Positions 20,665-54,303 of a stretch of 64,000 nt of DNA are shown here, piece after piece. A program made the position numbers and the translations under genes. The notes under the pieces are model-generated. The model saw only the letters and a list, made by a program, of their open reading frames with translations, ran no database searches and was not told the origin of the DNA. Source of the DNA: Deltaproteobacteria bacterium (GTDB lineage Bacteria; Myxococcota_A; UBA9042); the NCBI GenBank assembly GCA_016875335.1, contig VGRO01000005.1, forward strand, positions 11,295-75,294, in the 5' to 3' direction. The first letter of the stretch is position 1, and each line of letters opens with the position of its first letter.

Positions 20665-20672
20665 TGGTGGGC

Positions 20673-40766: not shown

Positions 40767-42890
40767 ATGGCCGATGCACCCCTGCCAGCGCTCGGTCCGC
40801 GGCAACGTGCCGCCGCGCACGTGCTCTTGCGCCTCGCCCACGACCGCTGGGTACCGCCGCTTCCAACCGGCGAGGACCGCCCTGAACTCGCGCGCGTCGC
40901 CGCCACTCGCGCGCTCCTCGACGCTCCCGATCCCGACGACTCGCCGCTGGAGGCTGCGCGGCAGGCACTGGAAGCGGCAGCCGCTGTGCCCGGCGAACCC
41001 GCCGACCGCCTCGACCTGGCGGCTGATTTGCTGGGTCTGGCGCCACCGGCCCGGCTCGCCCTGGGACTGTGTGCTTGCATCCAACTCGACCCGCGCATCG
41101 GGCAGATGGCGCGGGCCGTGGCGGCGCGCTTGGGCTACGCCGACGGCAGCGACCCTGCCCTGCTCGACGCCGCACTGGAACCCGCAGGGCTCGGACCGGC
41201 GTGGACGCGGACGCTTTTGCACGAAGGGGGACAACTGCGGCGCATGGGCGTACTGACCCTGCACGACGGCAAGGTCGGGCTCGGCATCGCCTTGCAAGCC
41301 TTCGTGCAGACTGCGCTTCCTGCCCACAGCCCGCTGCGGCCGTTCGAGGTGGCGCCCACCGTGCCCGCGGGCCTGGTCGGGGCGCTCGTGGCGGCGCGCA
41401 GGGGCTGGATCGAGGTGCTCGGCCGCGCGCTGCACGCCGATCGGCCTTTGCTGTTGTCGGGCATGGCCGGGTTTGCCGGCGCGACGCTGGTGCAGGCGGC
41501 CGTCGGCGTTGGCGGGCCACAGGTGCGCAGCATCGACCTTGGCGCCATCTTTGACTTCGAGCGCGGCTTGCCGACGCCGCTGCTGGGCGAATTGCACGCC
41601 GAGGTGCGCTTGAGCGCGGCGCCCTGGGCCCTGCACGGCGCCGAACGCCTGGAAAAGACCGTCCGCGACCATCCGGCGGCCTTGCGGCGGCTGGTGGCGG
41701 CCCTGGTCGCCATGGGCCGGCCGATGGTCCTGTTGCACGCGGGTCCGCTTTCGCCCGACGTGGCGGCCCGGCTCGCCCAAGAGGCCGGTCTGCCCAACTT
41801 TGAACTGCCGCCTTTGCCGGTCGACGCGCGCAAGGCGCTGCTGCATGCGTCGCTGGTGGCGCAGGGCGTTGCCGAAACCACGGCCGAGTCTCTGGCCGAG
41901 GCGTGCCGGAACGCCAACCTCGAAGTCGAGTCGGTGGCCGCGGCGGTGGCCTTCGCGAGCCAGAAGGCCGTGCAGCGTGCCGCGAAACTGGCTGCCGGTG
42001 GCAAGGCGCCTGCCGAGGCCGTGCCGACGGTCGCTGAACTGCGCAGCGCGTGCAGCGCCACCATGACCAGCCGCTTGCGCCAATACGGGTCGCGCGTCGA
42101 GACGGCCTCGGACTGGGGTGACCTGGTGCTCGCCGCCGAGCCCCTGGGCCAAGTCAAAGACCTCGCACGGTTTGCCCGAGTGCGCGACCGCCTGTTCGAC
42201 GACTACGGTTTCGGCGACAAAATCGGTTACGGCAGGGCGCTGTCGGCGATGTTCTCGGGCCCGAGCGGCACCGGCAAGACCATGGTGGCCGGCCTCATCG
42301 CCAAGGACCTCGGCGTCGAGCTGTACCGGGTGGACCTGTCGCGGGTCGTCAGCAAGTACATCGGCGAAACCGAAGAACGACTTGGCGCGCTCTTTAGCGA
42401 GGCGAGCCTGGTCGGCGCGGCGCTGCTTTTCGACGAGGCCGATTCGCTTTTCGGCCAGCGCACCGAAATCAAGAGCAGCAACGACCGCTACGCCAACCTC
42501 GAGGTCAACTACCTCTTGCAGCGCCTGGAGGAGTTCGACGGCGTGGTCATCCTGACCACCAACTTCGCGACCTCCATCGACGCGGCCTTCCTGCGTCGCC
42601 TGCGCTTTCGCGTGCAGTTCCCCATGCCGTCGCCCAAGGAACGCGAGCGCATGTGGGAGGTCATGTTGCCGCCGCGCCTGCCGCAAGACGACGACGGCAT
42701 CGACTTTGAGTGGATGGGCGAGAGCTTTGACCTGACAGGTGGGCACATCCGCAATGCGGTATTGCGCGCGGGCATGTTCGCCGCTGACCTCGACCGGCCG
42801 CTGAGCATGCGGATGCTCTACGACGCGGCGGCGGCGGAGTATCGGGAGCTCGGCAAGCTGGCGCCGGGGTATCCGTTTGACGACGACTGA
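40767..42890 (+). CDS. AAA+ family ATPase with ~440-aa N-terminal extension
   Basis: C-terminal classical AAA module: GPSGTGKTMVAGLIAKDLGVELYRVDLSRVVSKYIGETEERLGALF (Walker A plus the second region of homology), LLFDEADSLFGQR (Walker B), and VVILTTNFATSIDAAFLRR (sensor / Arg-finger region). Confidence 0.75.
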   Translation: MADAPLPALGPRQRAAAHVLLRLAHDRWVPPLPTGEDRPELARVAATRALLDAPDPDDSPLEAARQALEAAAAVPGEPADRLDLAADLLGLAPPARLALGLCACIQLDPRIGQMARAVAARLGYADGSDPALLDAALEPAGLGPAWTRTLLHEGGQLRRMGVLTLHDGKVGLGIALQAFVQTALPAHSPLRPFEVAPTVPAGLVGALVAARRGWIEVLGRALHADRPLLLSGMAGFAGATLVQAAVGVGGPQVRSIDLGAIFDFERGLPTPLLGELHAEVRLSAAPWALHGAERLEKTVRDHPAALRRLVAALVAMGRPMVLLHAGPLSPDVAARLAQEAGLPNFELPPLPVDARKALLHASLVAQGVAETTAESLAEACRNANLEVESVAAAVAFASQKAVQRAAKLAAGGKAPAEAVPTVAELRSACSATMTSRLRQYGSRVETASDWGDLVLAAEPLGQVKDLARFARVRDRLFDDYGFGDKIGYGRALSAMFSGPSGTGKTMVAGLIAKDLGVELYRVDLSRVVSKYIGETEERLGALFSEASLVGAALLFDEADSLFGQRTEIKSSNDRYANLEVNYLLQRLEEFDGVVILTTNFATSIDAAFLRRLRFRVQFPMPSPKERERMWEVMLPPRLPQDDDGIDFEWMGESFDLTGGHIRNAVLRAGMFAADLDRPLSMRMLYDAAAAEYRELGKLAPGYPFDDD

Positions 42891-42981
42891 ACGCGCGCTG
42901 GGCTTGCGCCTTGCCGGGCAGGATGGGTCGGCCCAGCAGGGCGCCGAACCGCCATGCGTCGATGGGTGTCAACCGGGGCGT

Positions 42982-43202
42982 CTAGTAGGCGGCACCCCAA
43001 ATTCGCGTCGGGATACGGGCCGTGATTCCTCAACAAATCCTCAATCGGTTTCGCCTACTAGCTGCTTGTTGCGTGAAGGGGGCGCGCCGCCCCCTCGCGC
43101 GCAAATGCGCGCTCACCCCTGCGTCCGGCCGCAGCCGCGGCCGGAAGTACCTCAGCCCTGTTGCGCGCCGGAACCCGGCGCGAATTTCGGGCCTGAGGTA
43201 CT
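42982..43202. repeat. Series of GC-rich hairpins in a convergent intergenic region
   Basis: CTAGTAGGCG (42982) / CGCCTACTAG (43052) are inverted 10-mers. Hairpins: GGGGGCG-cgc-CGCCCCC (43078-43094), GCGCGC-aaat-GCGCGC (43097-43112), CCGGCCGC-agc-cGCGGCCGG (43126-43144), and AGTACCTCAG (43146) / CTGAGGTACT (43193) flanking GCGCGCCGG-aaccc-GGCGCG. Confidence 0.55.
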
Positions 43203-43236
43203 ATGGCGCAAAACCCGCCACAGCGTTCTTGCCAAA

Positions 43237-44898
43237 CTACCCCCGAAACACCCAAACCTCGCGCCCCTCGACCACCGGCCGCGTGTCCTCGACCACCATC
43301 CGCTCGCCCCACTCGCGTGCCTCGGCCTCCGGTCGCCGGTCAAAGATCAGCAGCGACGCCGACTCGCAAGGCACCCGCCGCAGGTAGGCCCCGACCTGAG
43401 CAAGACCCTCGTCGCGCGGATCGCCTTTCTTGGGGTGCCAGACTTTGAGCTCGAAAAGGTGGCGCTCAAAGCGCACCGGGTAGCGCGGCACCTTGCCTTC
43501 GTCGTCGGGCAGCGGCCAGCGAATCAAGACGTCCATGCGCCGGCTGCCAGCGGCGTATTCGCGGTCCACCCAGCCACCGCCGTTGACGATGCGCTGCAAG
43601 AAGCCCATGCACACCAACTGGACCGCCACCTCGCGGTAGCCCTCGGCCTGCACGAAGCCCTCGGCGTGCTCGCGCCAGAACGCCAGGAATGCTTCGCGCA
43701 GGCCGTCGATGTCCAGGCGGCCGTCGTCGCGGTGCCAGCGGCCGCTAACGACCTGCAATTGGTGTTGGTAGCGACCAGCAAGGCAGCGCGGGATGACCTC
43801 CTTGTAGATCGCGTTGGCGACGCGGGCCGGCTGGTCGGTCACGAGGCCAATGTCCCGGCAATAGCGGTCGTCTTCCCAATCGGCGTTGGTGAGGTCGCTG
43901 CCCGCCAGAATCGGCTCCAACACCTGCCGCACGCGGTCCTCTCGCAGCCGCGCCATCAGCGAGTCGAAGTGCGTGCCCCACTGCACGATGAGGTTGTCTT
44001 TGGCGATGTCGATGTGGGCGACGTCGACGGTTCCGGTCCACCCTTGCTTGGCGACGACGTCGTGGGCCAGTGCGTTGACCAGGTGCGGTTGGCCGCCGGT
44101 CAGCTCCGCCACGCGGTCGAGGGCGGCATCGGTGAAGGCCTGGCCCGTTTCAGCGGTGTGCTGGCCGTACAGCGCGGCGATTTCAGCGCGGCTGAAGGAG
44201 GCGAGGGTAATCGACTCGCGCTTGACGTTGAACGGGCTCGAAGAGGCCGCCCGATCCTGGCCACCCGAGGCGATCTTGTAGTCGCGGACGTCGCGCATGC
44301 CGAAGATGCAGACGGAGTGGGGAAAGCCCTTGGGGCGTTCGGCGTAGCCCTTGCGCATTTGGCTGAGCACGGACACCAGGCCGTCGTTTTCCAAGCAATC
44401 GATCTCGTCGAGGAACAGGACGAGGGGGCGCGCGCACGCCTGCGACCACGCGCGCAGAAAGCGATACAGGCGGCTGCGCGGTGTGGCAGGGGCGTCTGGC
44501 GCTTCGGCGGGAGGTTGCTCCGCCAGCGGCAGTTGGTCGCTCGCCAGTTGCAGCGAGCCGACGACCAGTTCGATGACCTCGCCAACGCTTTGGACTGCGC
44601 GGGCCTCCTCGACCGTGCAATAGACCACGGCATACCGCCCGTCCGCGCGCAGCTTGTCCGCCAGCGCCAGCACCGTCGTGGTCTTGCCCGACTGCCGCGG
44701 GGCGTGCAGCACAAAGTAGTAGCCGTCGTGGACCAAACCCTCGACGGTCGGCGGCAGGCGGTCGAGCGGCGGCAGCGTGTAGTGCTGCGCGACGCGGTTG
44801 ACGTGAGCGGTGTTGAACTGGCGGGCCAAGGCGCACGCAGGGCCGCGGTCAGGCGGCGCAGGCGGGCAGCGTACCACGAACGCGGCGCGGGGCGGCAA
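43237..44898 (-). CDS. AAA-ATPase-like (PF09820-type) protein with C-terminal PD-(D/E)XK-like region
   Basis: Walker A HAPRQSGKTT and Walker B LVLFLDEIDCLEN. The C-terminal ...VLIRWPLPDDEGKVPRYPVRFERHLFELKVWHPKKGD is consistent with a PD-(D/E)XK (E..D..ELK) motif. The start is uncertain: the ORF begins at 44898, but homology to the 28771 fragment starts near LARQFNTAH (about 44830). Confidence 0.7.
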   Translation of the reverse strand: MPPRAAFVVRCPPAPPDRGPACALARQFNTAHVNRVAQHYTLPPLDRLPPTVEGLVHDGYYFVLHAPRQSGKTTTVLALADKLRADGRYAVVYCTVEEARAVQSVGEVIELVVGSLQLASDQLPLAEQPPAEAPDAPATPRSRLYRFLRAWSQACARPLVLFLDEIDCLENDGLVSVLSQMRKGYAERPKGFPHSVCIFGMRDVRDYKIASGGQDRAASSSPFNVKRESITLASFSRAEIAALYGQHTAETGQAFTDAALDRVAELTGGQPHLVNALAHDVVAKQGWTGTVDVAHIDIAKDNLIVQWGTHFDSLMARLREDRVRQVLEPILAGSDLTNADWEDDRYCRDIGLVTDQPARVANAIYKEVIPRCLAGRYQHQLQVVSGRWHRDDGRLDIDGLREAFLAFWREHAEGFVQAEGYREVAVQLVCMGFLQRIVNGGGWVDREYAAGSRRMDVLIRWPLPDDEGKVPRYPVRFERHLFELKVWHPKKGDPRDEGLAQVGAYLRRVPCESASLLIFDRRPEAEAREWGERMVVEDTRPVVEGREVWVFRG

Positions 44899-45191: not shown

Positions 45192-45638
45192 ATGCGTCCC
45201 GTCCTGCCGTTGTCCGTCCTCGCGCTTGCTGCCGCCCTGCCCGTCACCGCCGCCGACGCGCCCGCTGCCCGCGTGGTTGTCGCGCGCGAATCGGCGCAGA
45301 CCTACCCTATCCTCGGCGGCAAAGGCGAGGCGACCCTGCTGCTCAACGCCGAAACGGGCAGCAAGGAGGCCGCGCTGTCGGTCCTGACGCTGGCCCCTGG
45401 CGCCGAGGTGCCGCAACACGTGCACGAAGGCAGCGCGGAGTTGCTGTACATCGAGAGCGGCACCTGTGAACTGGTGGTCGGCGGCGTCAAGGTCCAGGCC
45501 GGGCCGGGCAGCGCCGTGCGCATTCCGGCGGGTGTGCCGCACAGCGCACGGGTGACCTCGGCGGTGCAGTCGCTGCGGGCGGTGCAGGTGTACGTGGGGC
45601 CGGGGCCGGAGCAGAGGTTTCGCGCGCCCGCCAAGTAG
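45192..45638 (+). CDS. Secreted single-domain cupin protein
   Basis: ATG at 45192. MRPVLPLSVLALAAALPVTAADA is a signal peptide. Cupin motifs: PGAEVPQHVHEGSAELLYIESG ... GSAVRIPAGVPHSARV. Confidence 0.6.
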   Translation: MRPVLPLSVLALAAALPVTAADAPAARVVVARESAQTYPILGGKGEATLLLNAETGSKEAALSVLTLAPGAEVPQHVHEGSAELLYIESGTCELVVGGVKVQAGPGSAVRIPAGVPHSARVTSAVQSLRAVQVYVGPGPEQRFRAPAK

Positions 45639-45700
45639 CGCCAGTCGGGTTGCTGGTGGATTGCGGGCAATGTTGACAATCCCGGCCGCCCGGCCCAAGT

Positions 45701-48169
45701 TTGGCCGTCGGGTGGTCCTGTCGACCATCGCTGGCGGGCGTCGAGGGCAGCGTGGGCAAAGCGGTCGATGTCGGTGAACTGAAAGCCAGGGCGGCCGCCG
45801 TGCGACGGTCGCTGGTTGACCCGGTCATTGCGCCGTGGCAGACCGCCGGAACGACAGCGCTCTTCCAGGTTCGCCTGGACCGCGCGGCCAATCGCCTGGC
45901 GGAGGCGGCGGCGTACCAGCACCTCGCGACGGGCTCGCTGCCAGCAGAACCGTTGATCCGAGAACTGGTTGGACAGTGGCACGCGGTAGGCTTCGATGAC
46001 GCCTTCGAGCAGGCGCGGGTCTTCGAGGAGCGGGCGTTTGCCGGGTCGGTCGAAGACGAGTGGCGCGCGCGGGTCGAGGCCGAGTTTGGTTTCGTGGACA
46101 TCCGCGGGATGCAGACCGGGGCGGCGCTGCGGGTGCCGCTCGACCGACTGTGGGTGGGCTTGCGGGCCGAGAGGGAGCCCGAGGACGAAAGCCGCGAACC
46201 GCACTTGGCCTGGGTGCGGTCCAGGAGCCGCGGGGACGAGCAGTTCATTCCAGTGACGGCCATCGCGCGGGAGAACCCGGTCGTCGCGTTCGTCGCTGGC
46301 CCAGGATCCGGCAAGAGCACGCTGGTCGCGCGGTTGGCCGTGGACGCCGCGCGCAACGCCAATGGGCCGGTGCCGTTCGTCGTGCCCGGACACCGCTGGC
46401 AGGGCGATGCCGTGACCGCGGTGACGCTGGCCAACGCGGCTGGCTACAATGCGGCACAGACGGCGCTGCTGGTGGACTGCTGGAACAGCGGCCGCGCTCT
46501 GGTCATCGTCGATGCGGTCGACGAGTGTTCTTCGCCATCCACGCTTGTGGCCGCCTTGGACGCGGCGGCGGCTGCGCTTGGCGGGACCGGCAACCGCTTG
46601 GTTGTCACCTCCCGGCCGCTTCCCGCGTGGGCGACGACGAAGAGACTGCGCAAGCACACGTGGACTCTTGCGGCCTTCGAGCGGTCCGAGCAAGAGGCGT
46701 ACGTGGACCAGTGGACGCAGGCGGTGGAAATTGCGCTGCACAACGTACCGGATCCGAAGGCGCAGCAGGCCGAGCGACCGTTGAAGTTGGCGGCCAACGC
46801 GGCCACCAAACTCAAACGGGCGCTCCGTGCCAACCGGGCCCTGGGCGAGTTGGCCGGCACGCCGCTGCTTATTTTGTGCATGTGCGCGCTGCATCGCTTC
46901 ATGGGCGAGCGTCTGCCCGAACGGCGGGTGGCGTTGTACGAGGCCGTCGTCAACTTGCTGCTTTTTGAGTGGGACAAGTCCAAGCTGGCATCGGACGCAT
47001 TGCTGGGCCAGCTCGACCGCGAGCAGCGCTGTGGGCTGATGGCACACCTGGCGCTCGCGATGCTCGATGGCGGCGCGCGCGAGTGGCAGGACGCCGAGAT
47101 CCTGGCCGCGTTGGAGCACGCTCAGGTCGCGAAAGACCAAAGGTGGGGCCAGGCCGAGTTGCTGACCGCGCTCGGCGAGGTGCGCAACCGCGGCGGCCTG
47201 TTGGTAGAGGCAGCGCCGGGTCGGTGGCGGTTCGTGCACCTGGCCCTACAGGAGTACCTGGCGGCGCGGGCGCTTGCCGAACTGTGGGACCTGGGGGCCA
47301 TCCTGGCACGCTGGCGCAAGGCGCCGGAGCGCTGGCGCGAGGTGGTCGTTTTGTATGCGGGGTTGCCGGGCGTCGACGCTGGCACGTTGGTGGATGCGGT
47401 GTCGGAAGAAGCGCACAACCAGCCGCGATTGGAAAGTTCGCAATTCTCCCGGTACAAGTTAGCGGCAGAGTGCATCGGATCCGCGGCGCTGCCACCGCCG
47501 GGCCGTATCGGCAGCCTATACGATGCCAGCGTCGCCCGTCTGACGATACTAGGGGCGGCCCATGTCATGCGCGTCGGCGGCATCGCTGAGTTCGCCCAGC
47601 TCCGCTTTGCATCGGCACTCGATGCGGCGATCGAAAGAGGGCAGGCGGCCGAGATCGAGGACGCGCTGTTTGCGCTTTCCGAGTTGGGCGCATCGGGAGG
47701 CGTGGGCGCGATTGCCGCGCGGCTTCCCAAATTGGCCCAGCCCGAATTTCGGCCCGCCCATACCCCAATAACTGCGGCCGATCCCAAGGGCGGAAGCGAA
47801 CTTGGCCTTTTCGCTTCGGCGCTGTTGGTGGCCTCCTATGCCAGCGGCCGGTGGCCTGGCGACGCCGAAACGCGCAACGTGGCGACGGTTGCGGCCGCAG
47901 TCGCGCAGCACCCAGACCTGCGACGTCCACTGGAAGATCACTGGCAGCGCATTCGCGGCGGCGTCGCAAGGCTCGACCCCCACAGCGCAGCGGAATACGG
48001 CGGCTTCCTCGAATCCGTGCTCCGCCAATCCGGCGACGACGGCGACCGCGAACGCCTTGACCGCCTCGTCGCCGGCCTGCCCACCACGGCCGCGGTTGGC
48101 AACGCGCGTCCCGAAAAGCCGCCGGCAGCGGCCTCTACGCCTGCAACACCCGGTCGATCGCGGCGTTGA
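45701..48169 (+). CDS. NACHT-domain STAND NTPase
   Basis: Walker A VAFVAGPGSGKSTLVARLA; Walker B ALVIVDAVDE; GTPLLILCMCAL (GxP-like); and downstream an α-helical Leu/Ala-rich region. N-terminal ~180 aa and C-terminal ~300 aa regions are unassigned. Confidence 0.7.
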   Translation: MAVGWSCRPSLAGVEGSVGKAVDVGELKARAAAVRRSLVDPVIAPWQTAGTTALFQVRLDRAANRLAEAAAYQHLATGSLPAEPLIRELVGQWHAVGFDDAFEQARVFEERAFAGSVEDEWRARVEAEFGFVDIRGMQTGAALRVPLDRLWVGLRAEREPEDESREPHLAWVRSRSRGDEQFIPVTAIARENPVVAFVAGPGSGKSTLVARLAVDAARNANGPVPFVVPGHRWQGDAVTAVTLANAAGYNAAQTALLVDCWNSGRALVIVDAVDECSSPSTLVAALDAAAAALGGTGNRLVVTSRPLPAWATTKRLRKHTWTLAAFERSEQEAYVDQWTQAVEIALHNVPDPKAQQAERPLKLAANAATKLKRALRANRALGELAGTPLLILCMCALHRFMGERLPERRVALYEAVVNLLLFEWDKSKLASDALLGQLDREQRCGLMAHLALAMLDGGAREWQDAEILAALEHAQVAKDQRWGQAELLTALGEVRNRGGLLVEAAPGRWRFVHLALQEYLAARALAELWDLGAILARWRKAPERWREVVVLYAGLPGVDAGTLVDAVSEEAHNQPRLESSQFSRYKLAAECIGSAALPPPGRIGSLYDASVARLTILGAAHVMRVGGIAEFAQLRFASALDAAIERGQAAEIEDALFALSELGASGGVGAIAARLPKLAQPEFRPAHTPITAADPKGGSELGLFASALLVASYASGRWPGDAETRNVATVAAAVAQHPDLRRPLEDHWQRIRGGVARLDPHSAAEYGGFLESVLRQSGDDGDRERLDRLVAGLPTTAAVGNARPEKPPAAASTPATPGRSRR

Positions 48170-48911
48170 CGGCGGCGCTGTAGGGCTCGGCCTCCGTCGC
48201 CCGAAAAGCCGTCGCCACCACGGCGCGCACGGCCGCCCGCAACGCCGGGTCTGCCCCTTCCAGCGCCTCAAGCAACGCTTTCACGCGCGCCGTGGTCGCC
48301 GCGATTGCCGCCTCTCGGGCACGGGTCAATCCCTCGCGGCTCAGGTCCATGTCGCGCACGGTAGCCTCGGCCTTTGCGTCGCCCTGCAGTGCCGCGATGC
48401 CGCCGCCGTCGTCGAACTGAAAGTGGGCGGCGGGGTTGGCGTCCTCATGCGGCGCTACGTACCCGCCTTGCGGCCACTTGTTGCTCTTGCTGTGGTTGCA
48501 CAGGCTGCAACTGGGCAGGTAGTTGCCCCAAGCGTAGGCCAAGGTGGGGAACAGCGACTTGGGCCGGAAGTGCTCGACCTGCCAGAACTGGTCTGCGAAC
48601 GCGGGCGACTCGCAGTACACGCATTTGCCCTTGGCGTTGTCCATCATTTTGGCCTTGCGGGCGAGGATCGCGTTGTCTTTTGCGCCCCACAACGGCGGGA
48701 ACTCCTTGGTCGCCGAGTTGCCCTTGGTCGGCAGCGTGCCTTGGTCGTGGTCGGCAAAGGTCTCCCCGGCAGCGACAGCGCCACTGCGGACGCCCGCTTC
48801 GTAGGCCTTTGCGGCTGTCTCGTACGCGGCATAGCCGCCCTTGAACTTTTTGCAGGCCTTCAACTTGTCTTTCCAGCCAACGGGGTCCGATACCACGCGA
48901 AACGCCATCAT
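48135..48911 (-). CDS. ptuB: HNH endonuclease, Septu PtuB-like (TIGR02646-like)
   Basis: 258 aa. Motifs CVYCESP...QVEHFRPKS...GNYLPSCSLCNHSKSNKWP form an HNH His-Me finger. The ATGATG start overlaps the TGA of the upstream ATPase gene (ATGA). Confidence 0.65.
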   Translation of the reverse strand: MMAFRVVSDPVGWKDKLKACKKFKGGYAAYETAAKAYEAGVRSGAVAAGETFADHDQGTLPTKGNSATKEFPPLWGAKDNAILARKAKMMDNAKGKCVYCESPAFADQFWQVEHFRPKSLFPTLAYAWGNYLPSCSLCNHSKSNKWPQGGYVAPHEDANPAAHFQFDDGGGIAALQGDAKAEATVRDMDLSREGLTRAREAAIAATTARVKALLEALEGADPALRAAVRAVVATAFRATEAEPYSAAVNAAIDRVLQA

Positions 48912-50242
48912 TGCGCACCCACCTTCGCGAGCGCCGCCAGCAATTCGCGGATGACGGCCTGCGTCGCCCCTTCGACGCGATCTCGACCGTCGGCTTGACC
49001 CTGGCGCATGGCCTCGCGGGCGCGGATGCCCTGGAGCTTGTCGAGCAATTCGCGAAGCCGGGCCCGCTGCTTCTCTGACCTGGCTGCTTTGGCGACGAGC
49101 GCGTCGAGTTCCCTTTCGAGCTCCGCCACCGCGTGGGAATAGGCGCTGTCGAGGCCGAACAATTCCGTTTCGACCAACGCCGATCCGACCGCCGCGTGGT
49201 GCAGCTTGGCCAGGGTAGCTGGCGCCAACCGCTCGACGCGCGCGGCTTTTTCGGCTTGGGGCGGCACCATGCGGTACACCGCGCACCCGGGCCCCTCGCC
49301 CACCGCGATATCCACGGCCGCCAGCGCCACCTGCGCCGAATGCGTCGTCACGACCAGTTGGGCACCGGGGAACGCGGTGAGCAACTGATCCAAAACCGCG
49401 TGCTGCCACCGCGGGTGCAGGTGCAAGTCCACTTCGTCGATGAGCAGCGTCAATTGGTCACCCGACCACCCATAGCTGATGACGCCCGTCGCCAGCCGAC
49501 CCAACGCATCCGCGACCAGGGCCAGCACCGCCTTGTAGCCATCCGAAAGTTCGCCAAACCGCCGTGTACTGCCGTCGTCGAAGTGCACGTCCAAGCCGCG
49601 TTGGTCGGCCGCGACCGTCGTCTGGTCAAAGCCCTGGACGACCTTGCGGAGCGATTGGTGCAGGGCGTCAAGGCGCTGCTGCGCCGCCGGATCGCCTTCG
49701 CGGCCCCTGGCATGCAGGCTCAGCAGCATGCTGGTCATGTTGCGCGTCGGGCCGTCAGAGGGCGCGAAAACACTGGCTGCGCGCCCGCCAAATGCAACCG
49801 AGTTGCTAGCGTACGACGATGGCGACACCAGTTCGCCGGCTTCCGACTTCGCAGGCGGCAAGGCGATCCCACGATACCTCCCATAGGCCAACAGCCATGG
49901 CTGCTCTGGCAGGCGATCCCGACCGGCACCTTGCGCTTGCAGCCACCCGGCCGCCCTGGCCCCCGCGCGATGCAGCACAATCTCGCCGCCGCCGCCCCCC
50001 GCGCGTCCGGGGAACTGCTGCAGGTCCCCTTCCTCTGGATCCTCGTCCTCGGACCGCCAGGCCAGCGCCGCGATGGCCTCGACCACGGTGGACTTGCCCG
50101 ACCCGTTTTCACCCACGAACACGGTCAGGCGGCGATGCAATTCGATCGCGGCATGGTCGAAGCAACGGACGTTGTGCAGTTCCAGTCGCGACAACTGCCA
50201 AGCCGCGGCCTTGTCGTGCGGGGTCGCATTCGGTTTTGGCAT
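48908..50242 (-). CDS. ptuA: ABC/OLD-like AAA_15/21 ATPase, Septu PtuA-like
   Basis: ATG at 50242 (MPKPNATPHD). The N-terminus LSRLELHNVRCFDHAAIELHRRLTVFVGENGSGKSTVVEAIAAL is a RecF/SbcC-like Walker A. LTLLIDEVDLHLHP is Walker B, and LVVTTHS is the H-loop. The stop overlaps the ptuB-like start. Confidence 0.7.
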   Translation of the reverse strand: MPKPNATPHDKAAAWQLSRLELHNVRCFDHAAIELHRRLTVFVGENGSGKSTVVEAIAALAWRSEDEDPEEGDLQQFPGRAGGGGGEIVLHRAGARAAGWLQAQGAGRDRLPEQPWLLAYGRYRGIALPPAKSEAGELVSPSSYASNSVAFGGRAASVFAPSDGPTRNMTSMLLSLHARGREGDPAAQQRLDALHQSLRKVVQGFDQTTVAADQRGLDVHFDDGSTRRFGELSDGYKAVLALVADALGRLATGVISYGWSGDQLTLLIDEVDLHLHPRWQHAVLDQLLTAFPGAQLVVTTHSAQVALAAVDIAVGEGPGCAVYRMVPPQAEKAARVERLAPATLAKLHHAAVGSALVETELFGLDSAYSHAVAELERELDALVAKAARSEKQRARLRELLDKLQGIRAREAMRQGQADGRDRVEGATQAVIRELLAALAKVGAQ

Positions 50243-50340
50243 GGTCAGGTCCGTTGCGGGCCGTCGGGCCCGGCCCGATGGTGGCATGCCAGCCCAAGCC
50301 GGTCACCTTTGGCTGGCACGACCCTTGCGGAAGCGCCCTA

Positions 50341-50497
50341 GCTGGGCACGCATGCCAGTCTGAAGCCTTGCCGAAGCGACCTCGGGGGGCACCGCGGCAA
50401 GTCTCGACCCTTGCCCAGCGGCCGGTATTGGCGCGCACGCCAGTCTCGACCGTTGCCCCGGCGCCCAACTTGGGCGCGCACGCCAGTCTCGACCCTT
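50341..50497. repeat. Imperfect ~40-bp direct repeats upstream of the ptuA-like gene
   Basis: TTGGCGCGCACGCCAGTCTCGACCGTTGC (50427-50455) and TTGGGCGCGCACGCCAGTCTCGACCCTTGC (50469-50497) are near-identical. Degenerate copies: CTGGGCACGCATGCCAGTCTGAAGCCTTGC (50341-50370) and CAAGTCTCGACCCTTGCC (50397-50414). Confidence 0.55.
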
Positions 50498-50498
50498 G

Positions 50499-52841
50499 CT
50501 ACGCGGGCGGCACCGGCACCGCTGGCCCGTCTGCAGCCGGCGCGCGCTCCACCCGCCGCGAGCCGAGCGCCGGGGCGTGGTCGCCAAAGTCGTCGCCCCA
50601 CTGGTAATACGCGGCCTTGCGCACGCTCTTGTAGCCCTGGACCAGCAGCGTCCACAGCCGGTCGCGGATGTCGGCGGCGCGGTCGGCGTCGGTCTCGGGC
50701 TTGCCGCCCGGCTTGTAGCCCGCCGGTCGCAACACCGCCAACAGTTGGGTGCCGACCGCGGCGGCCTCGTCGACTTCGGCCACCTCGACCGGGTGCTTGC
50801 CGGCGACGACGGCCGCGTGGGCGCGGAAGAGGCCGGCCAGCCGCACACAGTCGGTCGCGGAGTCGATAGCCCCGGTGCCGCGCTCGATGTCCCGCACTTC
50901 GGCCGCGGGCAAGAGGCCCTTGTCGGCCAGCGAGCGGGCGGCATTGAGCAGCATGGCGCGCAACTCTGCAGAACGCTTGCGCCAGCGGGCAATCTCGCCG
51001 GGCGACGCAGCATCGCGGTCCACGCGCGCCGATGCGTAGACGACGGCCTGGGCCAGCGCGGGCAGGTTGGGCATGGCGACCCAGTCCAGCGCGGGCAGCA
51101 CGGGTTGCAGTTCCGGCTGGAGCGCCAGCGCGGCCGCGACCCCGCGTTGGACATTGCCGTGGGCGATTTCTGGGTCGGCGCGCATGGGCTGGATGTCGCG
51201 CAGGGCCATGGCCTGGGGAAGGAACTGCTGGTAGGCGGCTTCGGCGTCGGGCTGGGCGGGGGTGTCGTGCATGGTGGGCTCCGTTGGGTTGTGGCCTTGG
51301 GCCGGCCGTTTGTCGATGGCGCTGGCGGGATTCTGGCGGTCGGCGCTGGGCATGGTCACGGCGTGCGGGTGTTCTGTCAAGTGCCTTGGAGCTGGGACAA
51401 CGGGTTCTGCGGGCGGCACGGGGGCGTCGATGTCGGTGTCGAGAATGCGCTGGAAAGCGTCGCGGATTGTTGCAGCCTCGGGCATTTGCAGGTGCTTGGC
51501 GTCGGCGTAGGCGCGTCGGAGGAGCGATTCGATTTCCGGGCGATCGTCGGGCTGGCCGCGCTTGTTTAGAACAAGGGCAGTATTGATGCAGGCGTCAACG
51601 AGTGCGGGCTTGTTGCCCAGACGCTCGTAGCGCGGCAGGACGTGCTCGCGTTGGATTCGCAAGGCCTCGTCCAATTGGCCGCGGGTTTGGTGCACGTCGG
51701 CGATCCTTCCGAGTGTGAGCGCCGCCGAGTGGTCGTCACCGAGCCGCTCGAATACCGGCAGCGCGTGCTCGCGCAAGATGAGCAGTGCCTCGTCGAGTTG
51801 GCCGAGGGTGTGAAGCACGCCAGCGATCCACGCGCGCGTCAGGGCCGTCAAGGGCACATCACCAAGCCGCTCAAAGGTTGGCAGCACCTGCTCGCGCGCG
51901 ATGCGCAGAGCTTCGTCGGGTTGGCCGAGGTCCAAGACGACGCGGGCAATATTGAGTTGCGTAGCCGCTGCTGATCGCTCGTCGCCCAGTCGCTCAAGTA
52001 CCGGCAGCGCCCGCTCGCGCAAGAGGCGCAGCGCCTCGTCGAATTGGCCGCGTTGCCGGAGCACGGAGGCGATATTTCGCCATGCCAATGATTCGGATCG
52101 CACGTCGCCCAGTCGCTCATACGCCGGCAGTTCCTCTTGACGCCGAATACGCAAAGCCTCGTCGAGATCGCCCTGGACGGCCAGCGCGGCAGCCACTTCT
52201 CCAAGGGTGACGGCCTTGTCGTAGTCCGCGCCGATCCGCTCGTAGATCGGAACGGCCTCCTTGAGCCGCAGGCGGATCGCGCCGGCCAAGTCTCCGGCAT
52301 CCGCAAGCGTATCCGCCTCGCGCCGCAGCGCCGTGGCAACGTCGTCGGCGTCTTCCGTTGCCAGTGCAACGTAGCTGCGCACCGACCACAGGTCTGGCGC
52401 TTCCCGTGCGAGCAGGGGGAACATCCACGCGGGCAGCACCAGCACCAGCGGCAGGCCGAGGTCGCTGGCGATGAGGTTGCGCGCTTCATTCATCCGCCGC
52501 AGCCAGTTGCGCCAGGCGTCGATGTCGCGCGGGTCGGCCGCCGAGGCGTCGATGCCGGCAACAGCGGGCGATGGCGACTGCTGGCGGACAACCAGCAGCG
52601 GCTTCAACAGCCCGTCGATGAGTTGTCCAACCGTCGGCGCGGCCCACAGTTTTCGTTCTTCGGGCTCGTGCCAGAGGATGGTCAAACCTGCGGGCAGCAC
52701 GGACTCGAGTTCTCCGCGAAACGCATGGCCGGCGTGCGGCCCGGCAACCTCAATGACGTGGCATTGAAACCTGTCGCCGCCCAATTCCAGCGCGGAGACC
52801 AGGCGAGCGGCCGCTTGGGCAGGTGGGACGCCAGCGTTCAC
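50499..52841 (-). CDS. TPR-repeat protein (about 8 tandem repeats) with unassigned N- and C-terminal domains
   Basis: GTG at 52841 overlaps the TGA of the upstream NTPase gene (GTGA). The central region has about 8 repeats of ...DEALRI.RE..LP.YERLGD.... The ORF-track Met at 52904 would give a 66-nt overlap instead. Confidence 0.6.
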   Translation of the reverse strand: MNAGVPPAQAAARLVSALELGGDRFQCHVIEVAGPHAGHAFRGELESVLPAGLTILWHEPEERKLWAAPTVGQLIDGLLKPLLVVRQQSPSPAVAGIDASAADPRDIDAWRNWLRRMNEARNLIASDLGLPLVLVLPAWMFPLLAREAPDLWSVRSYVALATEDADDVATALRREADTLADAGDLAGAIRLRLKEAVPIYERIGADYDKAVTLGEVAAALAVQGDLDEALRIRRQEELPAYERLGDVRSESLAWRNIASVLRQRGQFDEALRLLRERALPVLERLGDERSAAATQLNIARVVLDLGQPDEALRIAREQVLPTFERLGDVPLTALTRAWIAGVLHTLGQLDEALLILREHALPVFERLGDDHSAALTLGRIADVHQTRGQLDEALRIQREHVLPRYERLGNKPALVDACINTALVLNKRGQPDDRPEIESLLRRAYADAKHLQMPEAATIRDAFQRILDTDIDAPVPPAEPVVPAPRHLTEHPHAVTMPSADRQNPASAIDKRPAQGHNPTEPTMHDTPAQPDAEAAYQQFLPQAMALRDIQPMRADPEIAHGNVQRGVAAALALQPELQPVLPALDWVAMPNLPALAQAVVYASARVDRDAASPGEIARWRKRSAELRAMLLNAARSLADKGLLPAAEVRDIERGTGAIDSATDCVRLAGLFRAHAAVVAGKHPVEVAEVDEAAAVGTQLLAVLRPAGYKPGGKPETDADRAADIRDRLWTLLVQGYKSVRKAAYYQWGDDFGDHAPALGSRRVERAPAADGPAVPVPPA

Positions 52842-54151
52842 GGTCCGACTGCCGGCGCGGGTTCGTGCAACAGCCCGCGCACGGCCGGGTGCACATCGAA
52901 CCACGGTTGGGCGTTGTGGTAGGCGAGGATGACCTGGGCGCGCACGAGATGGTCGAGGGCGGACAACTGGGCGCGGTCCACACGCACCTGCCGTTCGCGC
53001 GCAACTTCGCGCAACATCGGCAGGTCGTCGCGCGCGACCATGCGCTGCAGCTGGTCGCGGAATTCCGCGGCAAGTCGCTCGCGGGCCTGGGCGTCGAGCG
53101 GTACGTCTCCCACAGCGTGGACCGCATTTTGGAGCAGGCGCACCAGCTCCCGGGGATAGCCGCCCGACAGTCGAATCAGGTCGTCGACGGCCGCGGACCA
53201 GTCATCGCCGAAAAGTGCCTGCAGACCCGCCTCGTCGATGCGCTGGCGGACGATCGTTCGCGCAGCCTCGCGGCCAGCCGGCAGCAGCCGCGGCGGGTCC
53301 GCGAGGTCCAAGCGGTCGTGCAGCTTGATCATCGGCACCACGTCGATCGGGCGCCGCATGCGCCACATCAGCGCCATGGGCACCGTATAGACGGCGTGCA
53401 CGCCCAGGGCGAGGTCGTCGGCCTGCTGCACGAACACGCGCTCGGCGCTGTCGAGCACCTGCAGCCAAGTCGTCGAAATCCCGCGGAGCTTCTCCAACGA
53501 ATCGACGATGACCAATAGCCCCGCCCAGCCCGCGGCTTGCGCCTGGGCCTGCAGCGCGCCCATGTCCTTGCGCACATGGTCGACGAGCGCCCGCACCTGG
53601 GAGGCGGCATTGTTGCGAAACCGCTCGCGCAAATCGGGCCGCTGCTTCAGTTCCAGTACAGCCTCGGCCACGCCGGCCTTCGCAGACAGCTTGGTCAGTT
53701 CGACGTCCGTCTGGGTCAGCCAGGTCCACAAGCGCTGGGCGACGCCGGGCGTTCCCGGGTTGCCGCCGCACTCCTTGGCGACGGCGGCCTCTGTTGCGAT
53801 GACGATGCCGCAGAGCAGGTCGGGCACGTCAATCGGTGCGTCGAGGTCGAAGTAATCGTCGGCCTCCACCACGACGGGCAGCAGCTTGGCGGTACGGTCC
53901 TCGCGCAAGTGTTGGGCAAGGCGGCGCAGGTCGGTCGACTTGCCGCACCCCGGCAGGCCGGTCACGAAACGGCAGACGGGTTGATCCGCAAGCAGGAAGT
54001 GGTCGGCGAGCCGTTGCGACCACACGACGCCGCGCGGCTTCTCGCCGGCGACTTCAATGGCGTCGATGTCCACGTTGCGCGGGTCGTCCGGTGCCAGCAC
54101 CTCGTTGGGGATACACCGGTTGTAGTATTTGCGGCGGTCGGCGAAAAGCAT
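52838..54151 (-). CDS. P-loop NTPase (STAND/AAA-like)
   Basis: Start chosen at MLFADRRKYYNRCIP (54151; the ORF track extends to 54211). Walker A RFVTGLPGCGKSTDL; Walker B LLVIVDSLEKL. α-helical C-terminal half. Confidence 0.6.
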   Translation of the reverse strand: MLFADRRKYYNRCIPNEVLAPDDPRNVDIDAIEVAGEKPRGVVWSQRLADHFLLADQPVCRFVTGLPGCGKSTDLRRLAQHLREDRTAKLLPVVVEADDYFDLDAPIDVPDLLCGIVIATEAAVAKECGGNPGTPGVAQRLWTWLTQTDVELTKLSAKAGVAEAVLELKQRPDLRERFRNNAASQVRALVDHVRKDMGALQAQAQAAGWAGLLVIVDSLEKLRGISTTWLQVLDSAERVFVQQADDLALGVHAVYTVPMALMWRMRRPIDVVPMIKLHDRLDLADPPRLLPAGREAARTIVRQRIDEAGLQALFGDDWSAAVDDLIRLSGGYPRELVRLLQNAVHAVGDVPLDAQARERLAAEFRDQLQRMVARDDLPMLREVARERQVRVDRAQLSALDHLVRAQVILAYHNAQPWFDVHPAVRGLLHEPAPAVGP

Positions 54152-54303
54152 GCGGTACCTGCGCGGTTGCGGTCGCGTGGCGCAGTGTAGGCGAGGTTGC
54201 GATGGCCGCAAACATCCGCACGCGACCTGCCTTTGGGCTGGGCGGCTCGGGCGGCGGCTTGGCTCGGGGGCCCCGGGTTCTCAGATCAAGACGACGGCGG
54301 CTT

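What the first reader, a model, noticed from the sequence alone, without database searches (positions are those of the whole stretch)
48135..50242. Septu-like PtuA/PtuB pair with an ATGA start/stop overlap
The ATPase (444 aa, RecF-like Walker A, Walker B LLIDEVDLHLHP, H-loop TTHS) is immediately followed by a 258-aa HNH protein (CVYCESP / VEHFRPKS / CSLCNHSKSNKWP). The HNH ATGATG start overlaps the ATPase TGA. This is the canonical Septu organisation. The ATPase is shorter than typical Bacillus PtuA, so this may be a divergent subtype.
Basis: partly seen in the sequence, partly recalled or inferred. Interest (0 to 1): 0.55.

Follow-up and report, generated by a model that had tools for sequence, protein, structure and literature searches.

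The report
Septu nuclease pair with NLR-like partner
The ATPase and HNH-nuclease pair is a real but divergent Septu (PtuA/PtuB) anti-phage module, and in every related genome examined it comes with a dedicated NLR-like NACHT gene facing it tail-to-tail, which points to an undescribed three-gene Septu variant with its own sensor or regulator.

Summary
ptuA (48908..50242, minus strand, 444 aa) and ptuB (48135..48911, minus strand, 258 aa) overlap by ATGA, and all the quoted motifs are present. PADLOC profiles, solved-structure matches and a fold search place both proteins in the PtuA and PtuB families. No reverse transcriptase or retron RNA is nearby.

The reading as "canonical Septu" is incomplete. 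A convergent 805-822 aa NACHT (NLR-like STAND NTPase) gene at 45701/45752..48169 (plus strand) overlaps the 3' end of ptuB by 35 nt. This third gene is strictly linked to this PtuAB clade.
- After de-replication there are 43 lineages from at least four phyla. Forty have ptuA-ptuB facing the NACHT gene, one has the NACHT gene upstream and divergent, two are cut by contig ends, and none lacks PtuAB.
- 0 of 54 more distant PtuA loci carry this NACHT gene, and NACHT out-groups lack PtuAB.
- The tail-to-tail overlap occurs in 37 of the 40 convergent lineages (median 56 nt).
- The three proteins co-diverge, and their catalytic residues are invariant.
- The NACHT protein has no effector domain.

Best reading: a three-gene, NACHT-associated Septu variant in which the NACHT protein senses or regulates and PtuAB is the nuclease effector acting in trans. 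The function is inferred, not shown. I found no description of it in the searchable literature. I rate it a new variant of a known kind, of moderate to high interest.

The parts
48908..50242 (-). ptuA: ABC/SMC-type ATPase, 444 aa. Walker A 50090..50113, signature LSDGY 49535..49549, Walker B 49433..49447, H-loop 49337..49348.
   Evidence: PADLOC PtuA E=1.1e-45. Pfam AAA_21, AAA_15, AAA_23 and SMC_N. PDB sequence hits to retron I-A PtuA and Septu PtuA. AF2 model pLDDT 75; all top 50 Foldseek hits are PtuA chains. Catalytic residues are invariant in 26 clade members. Coordinates verified.
48135..48911 (-). ptuB: HNH nuclease, 258 aa. Four-Cys HNH core 48492..48623 (C97, C100, H114, N130, C135, C138, N139). 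The N-terminal region of about 85 aa and the C-terminal helical region are conserved in the clade.
   Evidence: PADLOC PtuB E=1.3e-28. Pfam HNH. The clade profile matches solved PtuB chains at E=1.7e-19. The HNH and Cys residues are invariant in 24 sequences. Coordinates verified.
48908..48911 (-). ATGA start/stop overlap between ptuA and ptuB (likely translational coupling).
   Evidence: Sequence read directly. A 4-nt ATGA/GTGA overlap is available as a candidate ptuB start in about 12 related loci.
45752..48169 (+). NACHT (NLR-like STAND NTPase) gene, 805 aa from GTG 45752, or 822 aa from TTG 45701. Walker A GPGSGKST 46298..46321, Walker B LVIVDAVDE 46499..46525. Layout: N-terminal four-helix domain, NBD/HD/WHD, C-terminal helical repeats, disordered tail. 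No enzymatic effector domain.
   Evidence: Pfam NACHT. AF2 model pLDDT 76. Foldseek top hits NOD2, NLRP3 and NLRC4, E=1e-11 to 1e-10. Strict two-way linkage to this PtuAB clade. Walker residues are invariant in 34 sequences.
48135..48169 (.). Convergent 35-nt overlap of the 3' ends of ptuB (minus strand) and the NACHT gene (plus strand). The last 11 codons and stop of each gene are encoded on opposite strands of the same DNA.
   Evidence: Stop codons read directly. The tail-to-tail overlap is present in 37 of 40 convergent lineages, median 56 nt and exactly 56 nt in 13. The NACHT stop lies inside conserved PtuB codons.

Best explanation
This is a three-gene defence module, a NACHT-associated variant of Septu.

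PtuA (an ABC-type ATPase) and PtuB (an HNH nuclease) are co-translated from one transcript. By homology with solved Septu and retron I-A complexes they form a PtuA-scaffolded nuclease complex, which is the effector. In experimentally studied relatives that effector nicks DNA and/or causes tRNA-Tyr cleavage and arrests the infected cell.

The convergently transcribed NACHT protein is an NLR-like molecular switch without an effector domain of its own. I propose that it is the dedicated infection sensor or regulator. Its variable C-terminal helical repeats would recognise a phage cue. Nucleotide-dependent oligomerisation of the NACHT module would then license the PtuAB nuclease in trans, through the N-terminal helical domain that is specific to this subfamily. 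This parallels the way the RT-msDNA unit controls PtuAB in retron I-A.

Shown here: gene identities, intact catalytic motifs, strict two-way gene linkage, co-divergence, the conserved 3' overlap, and the absence of an effector domain in the NACHT protein.

Inferred: physical interaction, anti-phage function, nuclease target, and the direction of control. My estimates are:
- the three genes are one functional unit: about 0.85
- the unit acts in defence: about 0.75
- the NACHT protein activates rather than represses PtuAB: about 0.5-0.6, given that the genes are a unit
For: 1. Family identity of PtuA and PtuB.
2. From the PtuA side, an unbiased scan with PtuA peptide patterns returned 80 loci. 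All close-clade loci with DNA beyond ptuB carry a homologue of the window's NACHT protein (27-36% identity, E mostly 1e-41 to 1e-63, with one partial hit at 8e-22) on the opposite strand directly after ptuB. 0 of 54 more distant PtuA loci do.
3. From the NACHT side, 37 proteins score E<=3e-44, then there is a gap to generic NACHT proteins at about 1e-21. All 4 further in-group members examined have a convergent PtuB and PtuA. Out-groups P0165 and P0226 do not. A metagenome scan with NACHT patterns gave the same result, and out-group loci L126 and L127 lack PtuAB.
4. De-replicated count: 43 lineages, of which 40 are convergent, 1 divergent, 2 uninformative and 0 without PtuAB. Hosts span Myxococcota, Acidobacteriota, Gammaproteobacteria (Thiodictyon), Ca. 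Entotheonella and a 'Rickettsiales' MAG. Flanking genes differ in every lineage, and none of the window's other neighbours recurs.
5. Co-divergence: pairwise identity matrices of the three proteins correlate at r=0.93-0.97. Spearman is 0.55-0.72 among pairs below 60% identity, and a Mantel test gave 0 of 2000.
6. All three enzymes look active. Walker A/B, signature and H-loop are invariant in PtuA, H-N-H and four Cys in PtuB, and Walker A, D..DE and the winged-helix His in NACHT.
7. The NACHT protein has no fused effector. Its N-terminus is a four-helix region, only P-loop families hit any of 34 members, and the fold is NLR-like. The C-terminal repeats are the least conserved part (34%, against 64% for HD/WHD). 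The N-terminal domain is confined to the PtuAB-linked subfamily.
8. Precedent: PtuAB is an effector that another sensor module, the retron RT-msDNA, has co-opted (PMC12819146 and PMC8565338). Stand-alone Septu defends against phage and needs the Walker and HNH residues (PMC13096335).
Against: - There is no experimental evidence for any member of this clade. Interaction, defence activity and target are all inferred.
- Convergent orientation means the NACHT gene is a separate transcription unit, not part of an operon with ptuAB.
- Profile comparison finds no shared adaptor domain between PtuB and the NACHT protein (hhalign probability 0.2%), so no interaction mode is indicated by sequence.
- The mirror-tree correlation could partly reflect shared host phylogeny, especially among the eight Sorangium loci.
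- No hit was found in viral contigs, and no mobile-element marker is next to the module, so classical signs of a mobile defence cassette are missing in this window.
- Three lineages lack the 3' overlap and one is rearranged to a divergent layout, so the overlap itself is not essential.
- The literature search covers only open-access papers and bioRxiv. A description elsewhere cannot be excluded.
Confidence: 0.62

Rival explanations
1. This is a canonical two-gene Septu type I system. The NACHT gene is an independent single-gene bNACHT/Avs-like defence gene that merely sits next to it, for example by hitch-hiking within a defence island.
For: Stand-alone PtuAB pairs are self-sufficient in E. 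coli (PMC13096335). [quoted passage not shown] The two units are convergently transcribed. The window does carry other NTPase genes nearby, such as AAA_35, an IetA-like AAA+ protein and a TPR protein.
Against: All 41 informative lineages keep the linkage at only about 30-35% protein identity, across at least four phyla and in unrelated flanking contexts. 0 of 54 other PtuA loci have this NACHT gene, and NACHT out-groups have no PtuAB. The NACHT protein lacks any effector domain, so it would have no output on its own. The proteins co-diverge. The linkage is kept even in the one rearranged (divergent) lineage.
Confidence: 0.1
2. The three genes are one unit, but control runs the other way. The NACHT protein is a negative regulator or antitoxin that sequesters an intrinsically toxic PtuAB complex until a phage cue releases it, as RT-msDNA does in retron I-A. 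The convergent, overlapping transcription units may add antisense or transcriptional-interference control.
For: In retron Ec78, PtuAB alone is toxic and is neutralised by the added module (PMC12819146). The 3' overlap is conserved in 37 of 40 lineages, leaving no room for an intergenic terminator. No terminator-like site lies in the window's overlap. The linkage and co-divergence evidence is the same as for the best explanation.
Against: Known STAND/NLR proteins act as ligand-triggered activators that oligomerise, not as stoichiometric inhibitors (established knowledge; Kibby preprint). This PtuA lacks the N-terminal extension that retron-type PtuA uses to dock onto its regulator: it is 444 aa against 550, and the alignment starts at chain residue 52-63. 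One lineage keeps the linkage in a divergent layout without any overlap, so antisense control cannot be essential.
Confidence: 0.2
3. The module is not an anti-phage system. It could be a regulated cell-death or kin-conflict system, or a nucleic-acid repair or surveillance system, of social and multicellular bacteria such as Myxococcota and Entotheonella.
For: Many hosts are Sorangium, Byssovorax and other Polyangia, or Entotheonella. STAND-based conflict systems are enriched in multicellular prokaryotes (PMC7159879). The module was not found on viral contigs.
Against: Both halves belong to families with demonstrated anti-phage roles. The module also occurs in Acidobacteriota, Thermoanaerobaculia and Thiodictyon MAGs. 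Its patchy distribution across phyla is typical of defence genes.
Confidence: 0.08

Closest known systems
Septu type I (stand-alone PtuA/PtuB; E. coli structures 8EEA/8SUX and the PtuA structure 8EE4, Bacillus systems)
   Same: The gene order is the same, ptuA then ptuB, with close coupling. PtuA is an ABC-type ATPase without TOPRIM and PtuB is an HNH nuclease. PtuA is of similar length (444 aa against 465). PADLOC PtuA1 and PtuB1 profiles are the best hits. The PtuA fold matches 8eea, 8ee4 and 8sux at E about 1e-13.
   Different: Sequences are very divergent: phmmer E=1e-16 to 8ee4, and the PtuB clade profile reaches only E=2e-4 to 8ee7_C. There is a strictly conserved third gene (NACHT) that canonical Septu lacks. 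PtuB has a complete four-Cys HNH core and a clade-specific conserved N-terminal region. The signature motif is LSDGY, invariant in the clade.
Retron type I-A / Septu type II (Ec78/Eco7, Ec83: RT + ncRNA/msDNA + PtuA + PtuB)
   Same: A PtuAB effector is joined to an additional, separately encoded sensing or regulatory module. These are the best sequence matches among solved structures (PtuA 4e-20; PtuB clade profile 1.7e-19). The catalytic equivalents are conserved: Ec78 PtuA E396 corresponds to E270 here, and Ec78 PtuB H57 to H114.
   Different: There is no reverse transcriptase and no ncRNA. PtuA lacks the retron-specific N-terminal extension. The NCBIfam equivalog scores are far below cut-off (131.7 against 500, and 54.8 against 150). 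The added module is a NACHT NTPase encoded on the opposite strand downstream, not an RT upstream.
Bacterial NACHT (bNACHT) / NLR-like and Avs STAND anti-phage proteins
   Same: The NACHT module has Walker A, the D[GAS]hDE-type Walker B (DAVDE) and a winged-helix His. The fold is NLR-like, with top hits NOD2, NLRP3 and NLRC4. The C-terminal helical repeat region is variable, as expected of a sensor.
   Different: There is no fused N-terminal effector domain. Instead there is an obligate, separately encoded two-protein ATPase-nuclease partner. Characterised bNACHT proteins are mostly single-gene systems. This NACHT protein hits no PADLOC Avs or NLR model at E<=1e-5, only a weak mad8 match.
Other ABC-ATPase + nuclease defence pairs: PARIS (AriA/AriB) and Gabija (GajA/GajB)
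   Same: An OLD/ABC-type ATPase scaffold controls a nuclease. There are weaker PADLOC and PDB hits to AriA (3.5e-23 and 1.8e-9).
   Different: The nuclease here is an HNH protein, not TOPRIM/DUF4435. There is no TOPRIM domain in the ATPase. PtuA profiles score far better than AriA.

Membership tests
Septu (PtuA/PtuB) | PtuA: ABC/OLD-type ATPase with Walker A/B, signature and H-loop, and without a TOPRIM domain | tested here: met
   PADLOC PtuA E=1.1e-45, the best of 174 hits. Pfam AAA_21, AAA_15 and SMC_N only. Motifs verified. All top 50 fold matches are PtuA chains.
Septu (PtuA/PtuB) | PtuB: HNH nuclease of the PtuB/TIGR02646 kind | tested here: met
   PADLOC PtuB E=1.3e-28. The clade profile matches solved TIGR02646-family PtuB chains at E=1.7e-19 over positions 57-245. 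H114, N130 and four Cys are invariant. Caveat: the single sequence scores 33.5 bits against TIGR02646, below the curated cut-off of 52.15.
Septu (PtuA/PtuB) | ptuA immediately upstream of ptuB on the same strand, co-transcribed | tested here: met
   4-nt ATGA overlap at 48908..48911. The same order occurs in all related loci.
Septu (PtuA/PtuB) | Self-sufficient two-gene system (type I definition) | tested here: inconclusive
   A third gene (NACHT) is linked in all 41 informative lineages, which argues against a two-gene unit. Whether PtuAB works without it needs an experiment.
Septu (PtuA/PtuB) | Protects against phage; requires ATPase and HNH residues | not testable with these tools
   Shown only for E. 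coli and Bacillus relatives (PMC13096335; PMC12819146).
Retron type I-A (Septu type II) | Reverse transcriptase gene and msr/msd ncRNA adjacent to ptuAB | tested here: not met
   No RVT domain among the neighbours. No Rfam family at gathering score in the 64 kb window. The DNA upstream of ptuA is a 256-nt spacer followed by a TPR gene. The NCBIfam retron PtuA and PtuB equivalogs are far below cut-off.
Bacterial NACHT / NLR-like STAND NTPases | NACHT NTPase module: Walker A, D[GAS]hDE Walker B, helical and winged-helix domains | tested here: met
   Pfam NACHT in 34 of 34 subfamily members. GPGSGKST and DAVDE motifs present. Foldseek hits to NOD2, NLRP3 and NLRC4 at E=1e-11 to 1e-10.
Bacterial NACHT / NLR-like STAND NTPases | Tripartite single-protein architecture with a fused N-terminal effector domain | tested here: not met
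   The N-terminus is a four-helix region of about 110 aa with no enzymatic fold and no Pfam family in any member.
Bacterial NACHT / NLR-like STAND NTPases | C-terminal repeat or sensor domain | tested here: inconclusive
   The model shows alpha-helical repeats at 543-780 with moderate confidence (pLDDT about 50-80). This is the least conserved region (34% identity). No ligand is known.
Gabija / PARIS | TOPRIM nuclease domain (in GajA) or a DUF4435/TOPRIM partner (AriB) | tested here: not met
   No TOPRIM or DUF4435 hit in either protein. The partner is an HNH protein.

The most novel reading that the evidence does not exclude
An NLR-like NACHT protein that has lost or never had a fused effector works as the upstream sensor for a separately encoded, multi-subunit ATPase-nuclease machine (PtuAB). 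That would be a two-tier bacterial immune pathway in which one oligomerising NTPase switch licenses a second, 'inflammasome-like' ATPase-nuclease assembly in trans. It would be a second, independent co-option of the Septu effector after retrons. It would also give a defined sensor for a Septu-type system, where the trigger is otherwise poorly understood.
Probability: 0.45. Interest if true: 0.75.

Novelty: new variant of a known kind. Interest (0 to 1): 0.6.

Why it matters
Septu is among the most common bacterial defence systems, yet how stand-alone PtuAB senses infection is unclear. The only described elaboration is the retron I-A form, in which an RT-msDNA module controls the same effector. 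A clade in which PtuAB is invariably paired with an effector-less NLR-like NACHT protein would matter in three ways.
- It would show that the PtuAB effector has been co-opted independently by a second kind of sensor.
- It would give a rare bacterial case of a NACHT protein signalling to a separately encoded effector complex, closer in logic to animal NLR-adaptor-effector pathways than the usual fused bacterial NLRs.
- It would offer a compact three-gene cassette for testing how a STAND switch controls an ABC-ATPase/nuclease.

Practically, defence-annotation tools that call this locus 'Septu type I' plus an unrelated NACHT gene would be mis-describing it.

Tried and rejected
1. **Retron association.** There is no RT, no Rfam msr or other RNA family, and no tRNA in the window. 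Rejected.
2. **Shared adaptor domain between PtuB and the NACHT protein (EAD-type homotypic domain).** hhalign probability is 0.2%. Rejected at the sequence-profile level.
3. **Other window neighbours as module components.** The IetA-like AAA+ protein, AAA_35, cupin, TPR, the 457-aa P-loop protein and the HEAT protein have no homologue in any related locus. Rejected.
4. **The 43-nt tandem array upstream of ptuA as a conserved regulatory element.**
   - It is absent from all 27 other trio loci by autocorrelation, while the window is recovered as the positive control.
   - Its RNA fold is not unusual, z=-1.2.
   - My first two TRF-based scans are unusable, because TRF returned nothing for the reverse-complemented positive control.
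5. **Prophage or viral carriage.** No relative was found in IMG/VR viral contigs.
6. **Promoter and terminator consensus scan of 45300..50700.** One promoter-like and six terminator-like sites, which is no more than the shuffles give, and none in the convergent overlap. Uninformative for a 69% GC genome.
7. **'Shorter than typical PtuA' as evidence of a subtype.** Not supported; the length is typical.
8. **Known N- or C-terminal domain families in the NACHT protein.** None in any of the 34 members.
9. **Literature.** Searches for Septu/PtuA with NACHT, bNACHT, STAND or NLR, and for 'Septu type III' or 'Septu-like', found no description.

Full report
**1.

On the minus strand, a 444-aa ORF (48908..50242) is followed by a 258-aa ORF (48135..48911). 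The junction reads GCGCAATGATGGCG, so the first ATG of the second gene overlaps the TGA of the first by four bases.
- PtuA: Walker A GENGSGKS, signature LSDGY, Walker B LLIDE, H-loop TTHS.
- PtuB: CVYC, H114, N130, CSLCNH.

The public record for this contig is a 75.9-kb 'Deltaproteobacteria bacterium' MAG contig. It annotates the two genes only as 'AAA family ATPase' and 'HNH endonuclease'.

**2. Family identity**

PtuA:
- PADLOC profiles rank PtuA first (E=1.1e-45), ahead of retron I-A ATPase, AriA and NsnB.
- Pfam finds only ABC/SMC-type ATPase domains and no TOPRIM.
- Among solved structures the ATPase matches retron I-A PtuA (4e-20) and Septu PtuA 8ee4 (1e-16).
- An AlphaFold model built on 26 clade sequences (pLDDT 75, pTM 0.76) has PtuA chains as all of its top 50 Foldseek matches. 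These come from retron Ec78/Eco7/Ec83 and from E. coli Septu (8eea, 8ee4, 8sux).

PtuB:
- PADLOC ranks PtuB first for the second protein (E=1.3e-28).
- As a single sequence it is below the curated TIGR02646 cut-off (33.5 bits against 52.15).
- A profile of 24 clade members matches solved TIGR02646-family PtuB chains at E=1.7e-19 over nearly the full length.

Experimentally validated residues have equivalents here: Ec78 PtuA E396 corresponds to E270, and Ec78 PtuB H57 to H114.

No reverse transcriptase, no Rfam RNA family and no tRNA lies nearby, so this is not a retron I-A.

The best-matching PADLOC PtuA profiles are 421-455 positions long, and the solved Septu PtuA chain (8ee4) is 465 aa.

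**3.

The nearest relatives of both proteins are only 34-41% identical. When I looked at their genomic contexts, each PtuA-PtuB pair was followed by a convergent gene for a NACHT protein of about 725-810 aa, whose 3' end overlaps the 3' end of ptuB. In one lineage the NACHT gene was instead upstream and divergent.

The window has the same arrangement. A NACHT ORF at 45701/45752..48169 on the plus strand overlaps ptuB by 35 nt (48135..48169). The NACHT proteins of these loci are mutual homologues, 30-34% identical over about 530 aa with E=1e-53 to 1e-63. That is about as diverged as the PtuA and PtuB proteins themselves.

**4. Testing the linkage from both sides**

*From PtuA.* A scan of one genome per GTDB species with PtuA-only peptide patterns returned 80 loci.
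- All close-clade loci with enough DNA beyond ptuB carry the NACHT homologue on the opposite strand.
- The only close-clade loci without it are contigs that end too early (L015, L016, L017, L030, L031).
- None of the 54 more distant PtuA loci (L033-L086) has it.

*From NACHT.*
- The protein has 37 close relatives (E<=3e-44). Scores then drop sharply to generic, longer NACHT proteins at about 1e-21.
- All four further in-group members whose contigs I fetched have a convergent PtuB and PtuA.
- The two out-group proteins (P0165 in a DGR-like context, and P0226 with an NNH1 N-terminal domain) have none.
- A metagenome scan with NACHT-only patterns gave the same picture, and out-group loci L126 and L127 lack PtuAB.

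*De-replicated count.* After clustering at 80% identity there are 43 lineages:

| Arrangement | Lineages |
|---|---|
| Convergent | 40 |
| Divergent | 1 |
| Uninformative (contig ends) | 2 |
| NACHT without PtuAB | 0 |

Hosts include Sorangium, Byssovorax and other Polyangia, Thermoanaerobaculia, Bryobacterales and other Acidobacteriota, Ca. Entotheonella, Thiodictyon and a 'Rickettsiales' MAG. Flanking genes differ everywhere, and none of the window's other neighbours recurs in any related locus. The conserved unit is therefore exactly three genes.

**5. Further properties of the trio**

- **3' overlap.** The tail-to-tail overlap of ptuB and the NACHT gene is itself conserved. It is present in 37 of 40 convergent lineages, with a median of 56 nt and exactly 56 nt in 13. 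It also occurs in genomes of only 54-58% GC, so it is not just a high-GC artefact. In the 56-nt class the NACHT stop codon lies within conserved C-terminal codons of PtuB. The one divergent lineage shows that the overlap is not required for linkage.
- **Co-divergence.** Pairwise identity matrices of the three proteins correlate at r=0.93-0.97. Spearman is 0.55-0.72 when only pairs below 60% PtuA identity are used, and a Mantel test gave 0 of 2000. Shared host phylogeny may contribute to this.
- **Catalytic residues.** These are invariant in all three families across the clade.

**6. Anatomy of the NACHT protein**

The AlphaFold model (34 sequences, pLDDT 76) shows four parts:
- an N-terminal four-helix region (7-112)
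- the NBD, helical and winged-helix domains (113-540)
- C-terminal alpha-helical repeats (543-780)
- a disordered tail (782-805)

Foldseek's best PDB matches are NOD2, NLRP3 and NLRC4 (E=1e-11 to 1e-10). No Pfam family other than P-loop, NACHT and nSTAND models hits any of the 34 members, so there is no recognisable effector domain.

Conservation differs by region: 44% for the N-terminal domain, 49% for the NBD, 64% for HD/WHD and 34% for the C-terminal repeats. That pattern fits a variable sensor and a conserved switch.

In an exhaustive search of 1.84 billion representative proteins, only about 45 clusters match from the N-terminal domain onward. Other NACHT proteins match only from profile position about 90-140. 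The N-terminal domain is therefore specific to the PtuAB-linked subfamily, which makes it the obvious candidate for a coupling surface. That is an inference. A profile comparison found no domain shared between PtuB and the NACHT protein.

**7. Mechanism (inferred)**

Stand-alone Septu PtuAB forms a PtuA-scaffolded, 'inflammasome-like' complex whose nuclease is held in check until infection. In retron I-A the same effector is sequestered by RT-msDNA and released on infection. The outputs reported are DNA nicking and tRNA-Tyr cleavage with growth arrest (PMC12819146; PMC13096335).

By analogy, I propose that here an effector-less NLR-like switch supplies the sensing and control and PtuAB supplies the output. 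I favour activation by ligand-induced NACHT oligomerisation. A retron-like repressor role is the main mechanistic rival, and independent neighbouring systems is the main structural rival. None of this has been tested experimentally.

**8. Novelty**

- The PADLOC paper lists only Septu type I (AB) and type II (RT, equal to retron I-A).
- The bNACHT study notes that bacterial NACHT genes are only rarely in poorly conserved operons.
- The STAND conflict-system survey does not mention such a pairing.
- Searches combining Septu/PtuA/PtuAB with NACHT, bNACHT, STAND or NLR, or for further Septu types, found nothing relevant.
- PADLOC v2 has no model that recognises this NACHT protein beyond a weak mad8 hit.

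The search covers only open-access papers and bioRxiv. Within that limit, this is a new variant of a known kind: a NACHT-associated, three-gene Septu.

**9. Verdict**

| Item | Verdict |
|---|---|
| Observation | Confirmed |
| Three genes are one functional unit | About 0.85 |
| The unit acts in defence | About 0.75 |
| The NACHT protein is the activating sensor, given a unit | About 0.5-0.6 |
| Interest | 0.6 |

Noticed in passing
window 50321..50499: About 4.3 tandem copies of a 43-nt unit fill most of the 256-nt spacer between the end of the TPR gene and the ptuA start. The core GCGCGCACGCCAGTCTCGACC occurs exactly twice, and nowhere else in the window. No other trio locus has anything similar, and the RNA fold is not unusual (z=-1.2). 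It may be a local operator or promoter repeat, or a small repeat element.
   Followed up: partly
window 50499..54211 (minus strand): A gene pair lies directly upstream of ptuA on the same strand. One is a 457-aa protein with a P-loop-like motif (GLPGCGKST, read from the translation) and no Pfam or PADLOC hit (52838..54211). The other is an 801-aa TPR protein (50499..52904), and the two overlap by 67 nt. The pair resembles a split STAND-like NTPase plus TPR sensor. It is not conserved with the Septu-NACHT module.
   Followed up: partly
window 40767..44898: Two more NTPase genes are close by. One is a 707-aa AAA+ protein whose ATPase domain hits PADLOC IetA (1.5e-22), with no recognisable IetS protease partner. 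The other is a 553-aa AAA_35/AAA_16 ATPase on the opposite strand. Together with the NACHT and TPR genes this gives the region the look of a defence island, but no integrase or tRNA was seen.
   Followed up: no
window 7062..15299 (minus strand): A giant 2745-aa ORF is made largely of RCC1/RCC1-like beta-propeller repeats (WD40_RLD 1068 bits, 10 stretches).
   Followed up: no
window 17992..21177 and 25382..28498 (minus strand): A 1061-aa SNF2/ResIII-type helicase and a 1038-aa protein with an N-terminal sacsin (HATPase-like) domain. GC content dips to 0.64-0.66 across 18-26 kb, against about 0.69 elsewhere.
   Followed up: no
window 49535..49549 (PtuA residues 232-236): The ABC signature motif is LSDGY. 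The Tyr is invariant in the clade and sits where retron Ec78 PtuA has Q361. According to PMC12819146, stand-alone Septu PtuA has Leu there and lacks ATPase activity. This may mean low or regulated ATP turnover in this clade.
   Followed up: partly
L004 (also L005, L096, L097): One lineage has the NACHT gene upstream of ptuA on the opposite strand (divergent, about 300-nt spacer) instead of convergent and downstream. Linkage is kept without the 3' overlap.
   Followed up: yes
L027 and L029 (Thiodictyon MAGs), L013, L091: These are the exceptions to the 3' overlap, with gaps of 19 to 307 nt. In L029 the NACHT match is only partial (274 aa, E=8e-22), possibly a decaying copy.
   Followed up: no
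context of out-group NACHT P0165 (ENA ERZ1426840 contig, no DNA held): A more distant NACHT protein with an FGE-sulfatase C-terminal domain sits directly after an RVT_1 reverse transcriptase and a bAvd-like gene. That is a diversity-generating-retroelement-type context, unrelated to PtuAB.
   Followed up: no
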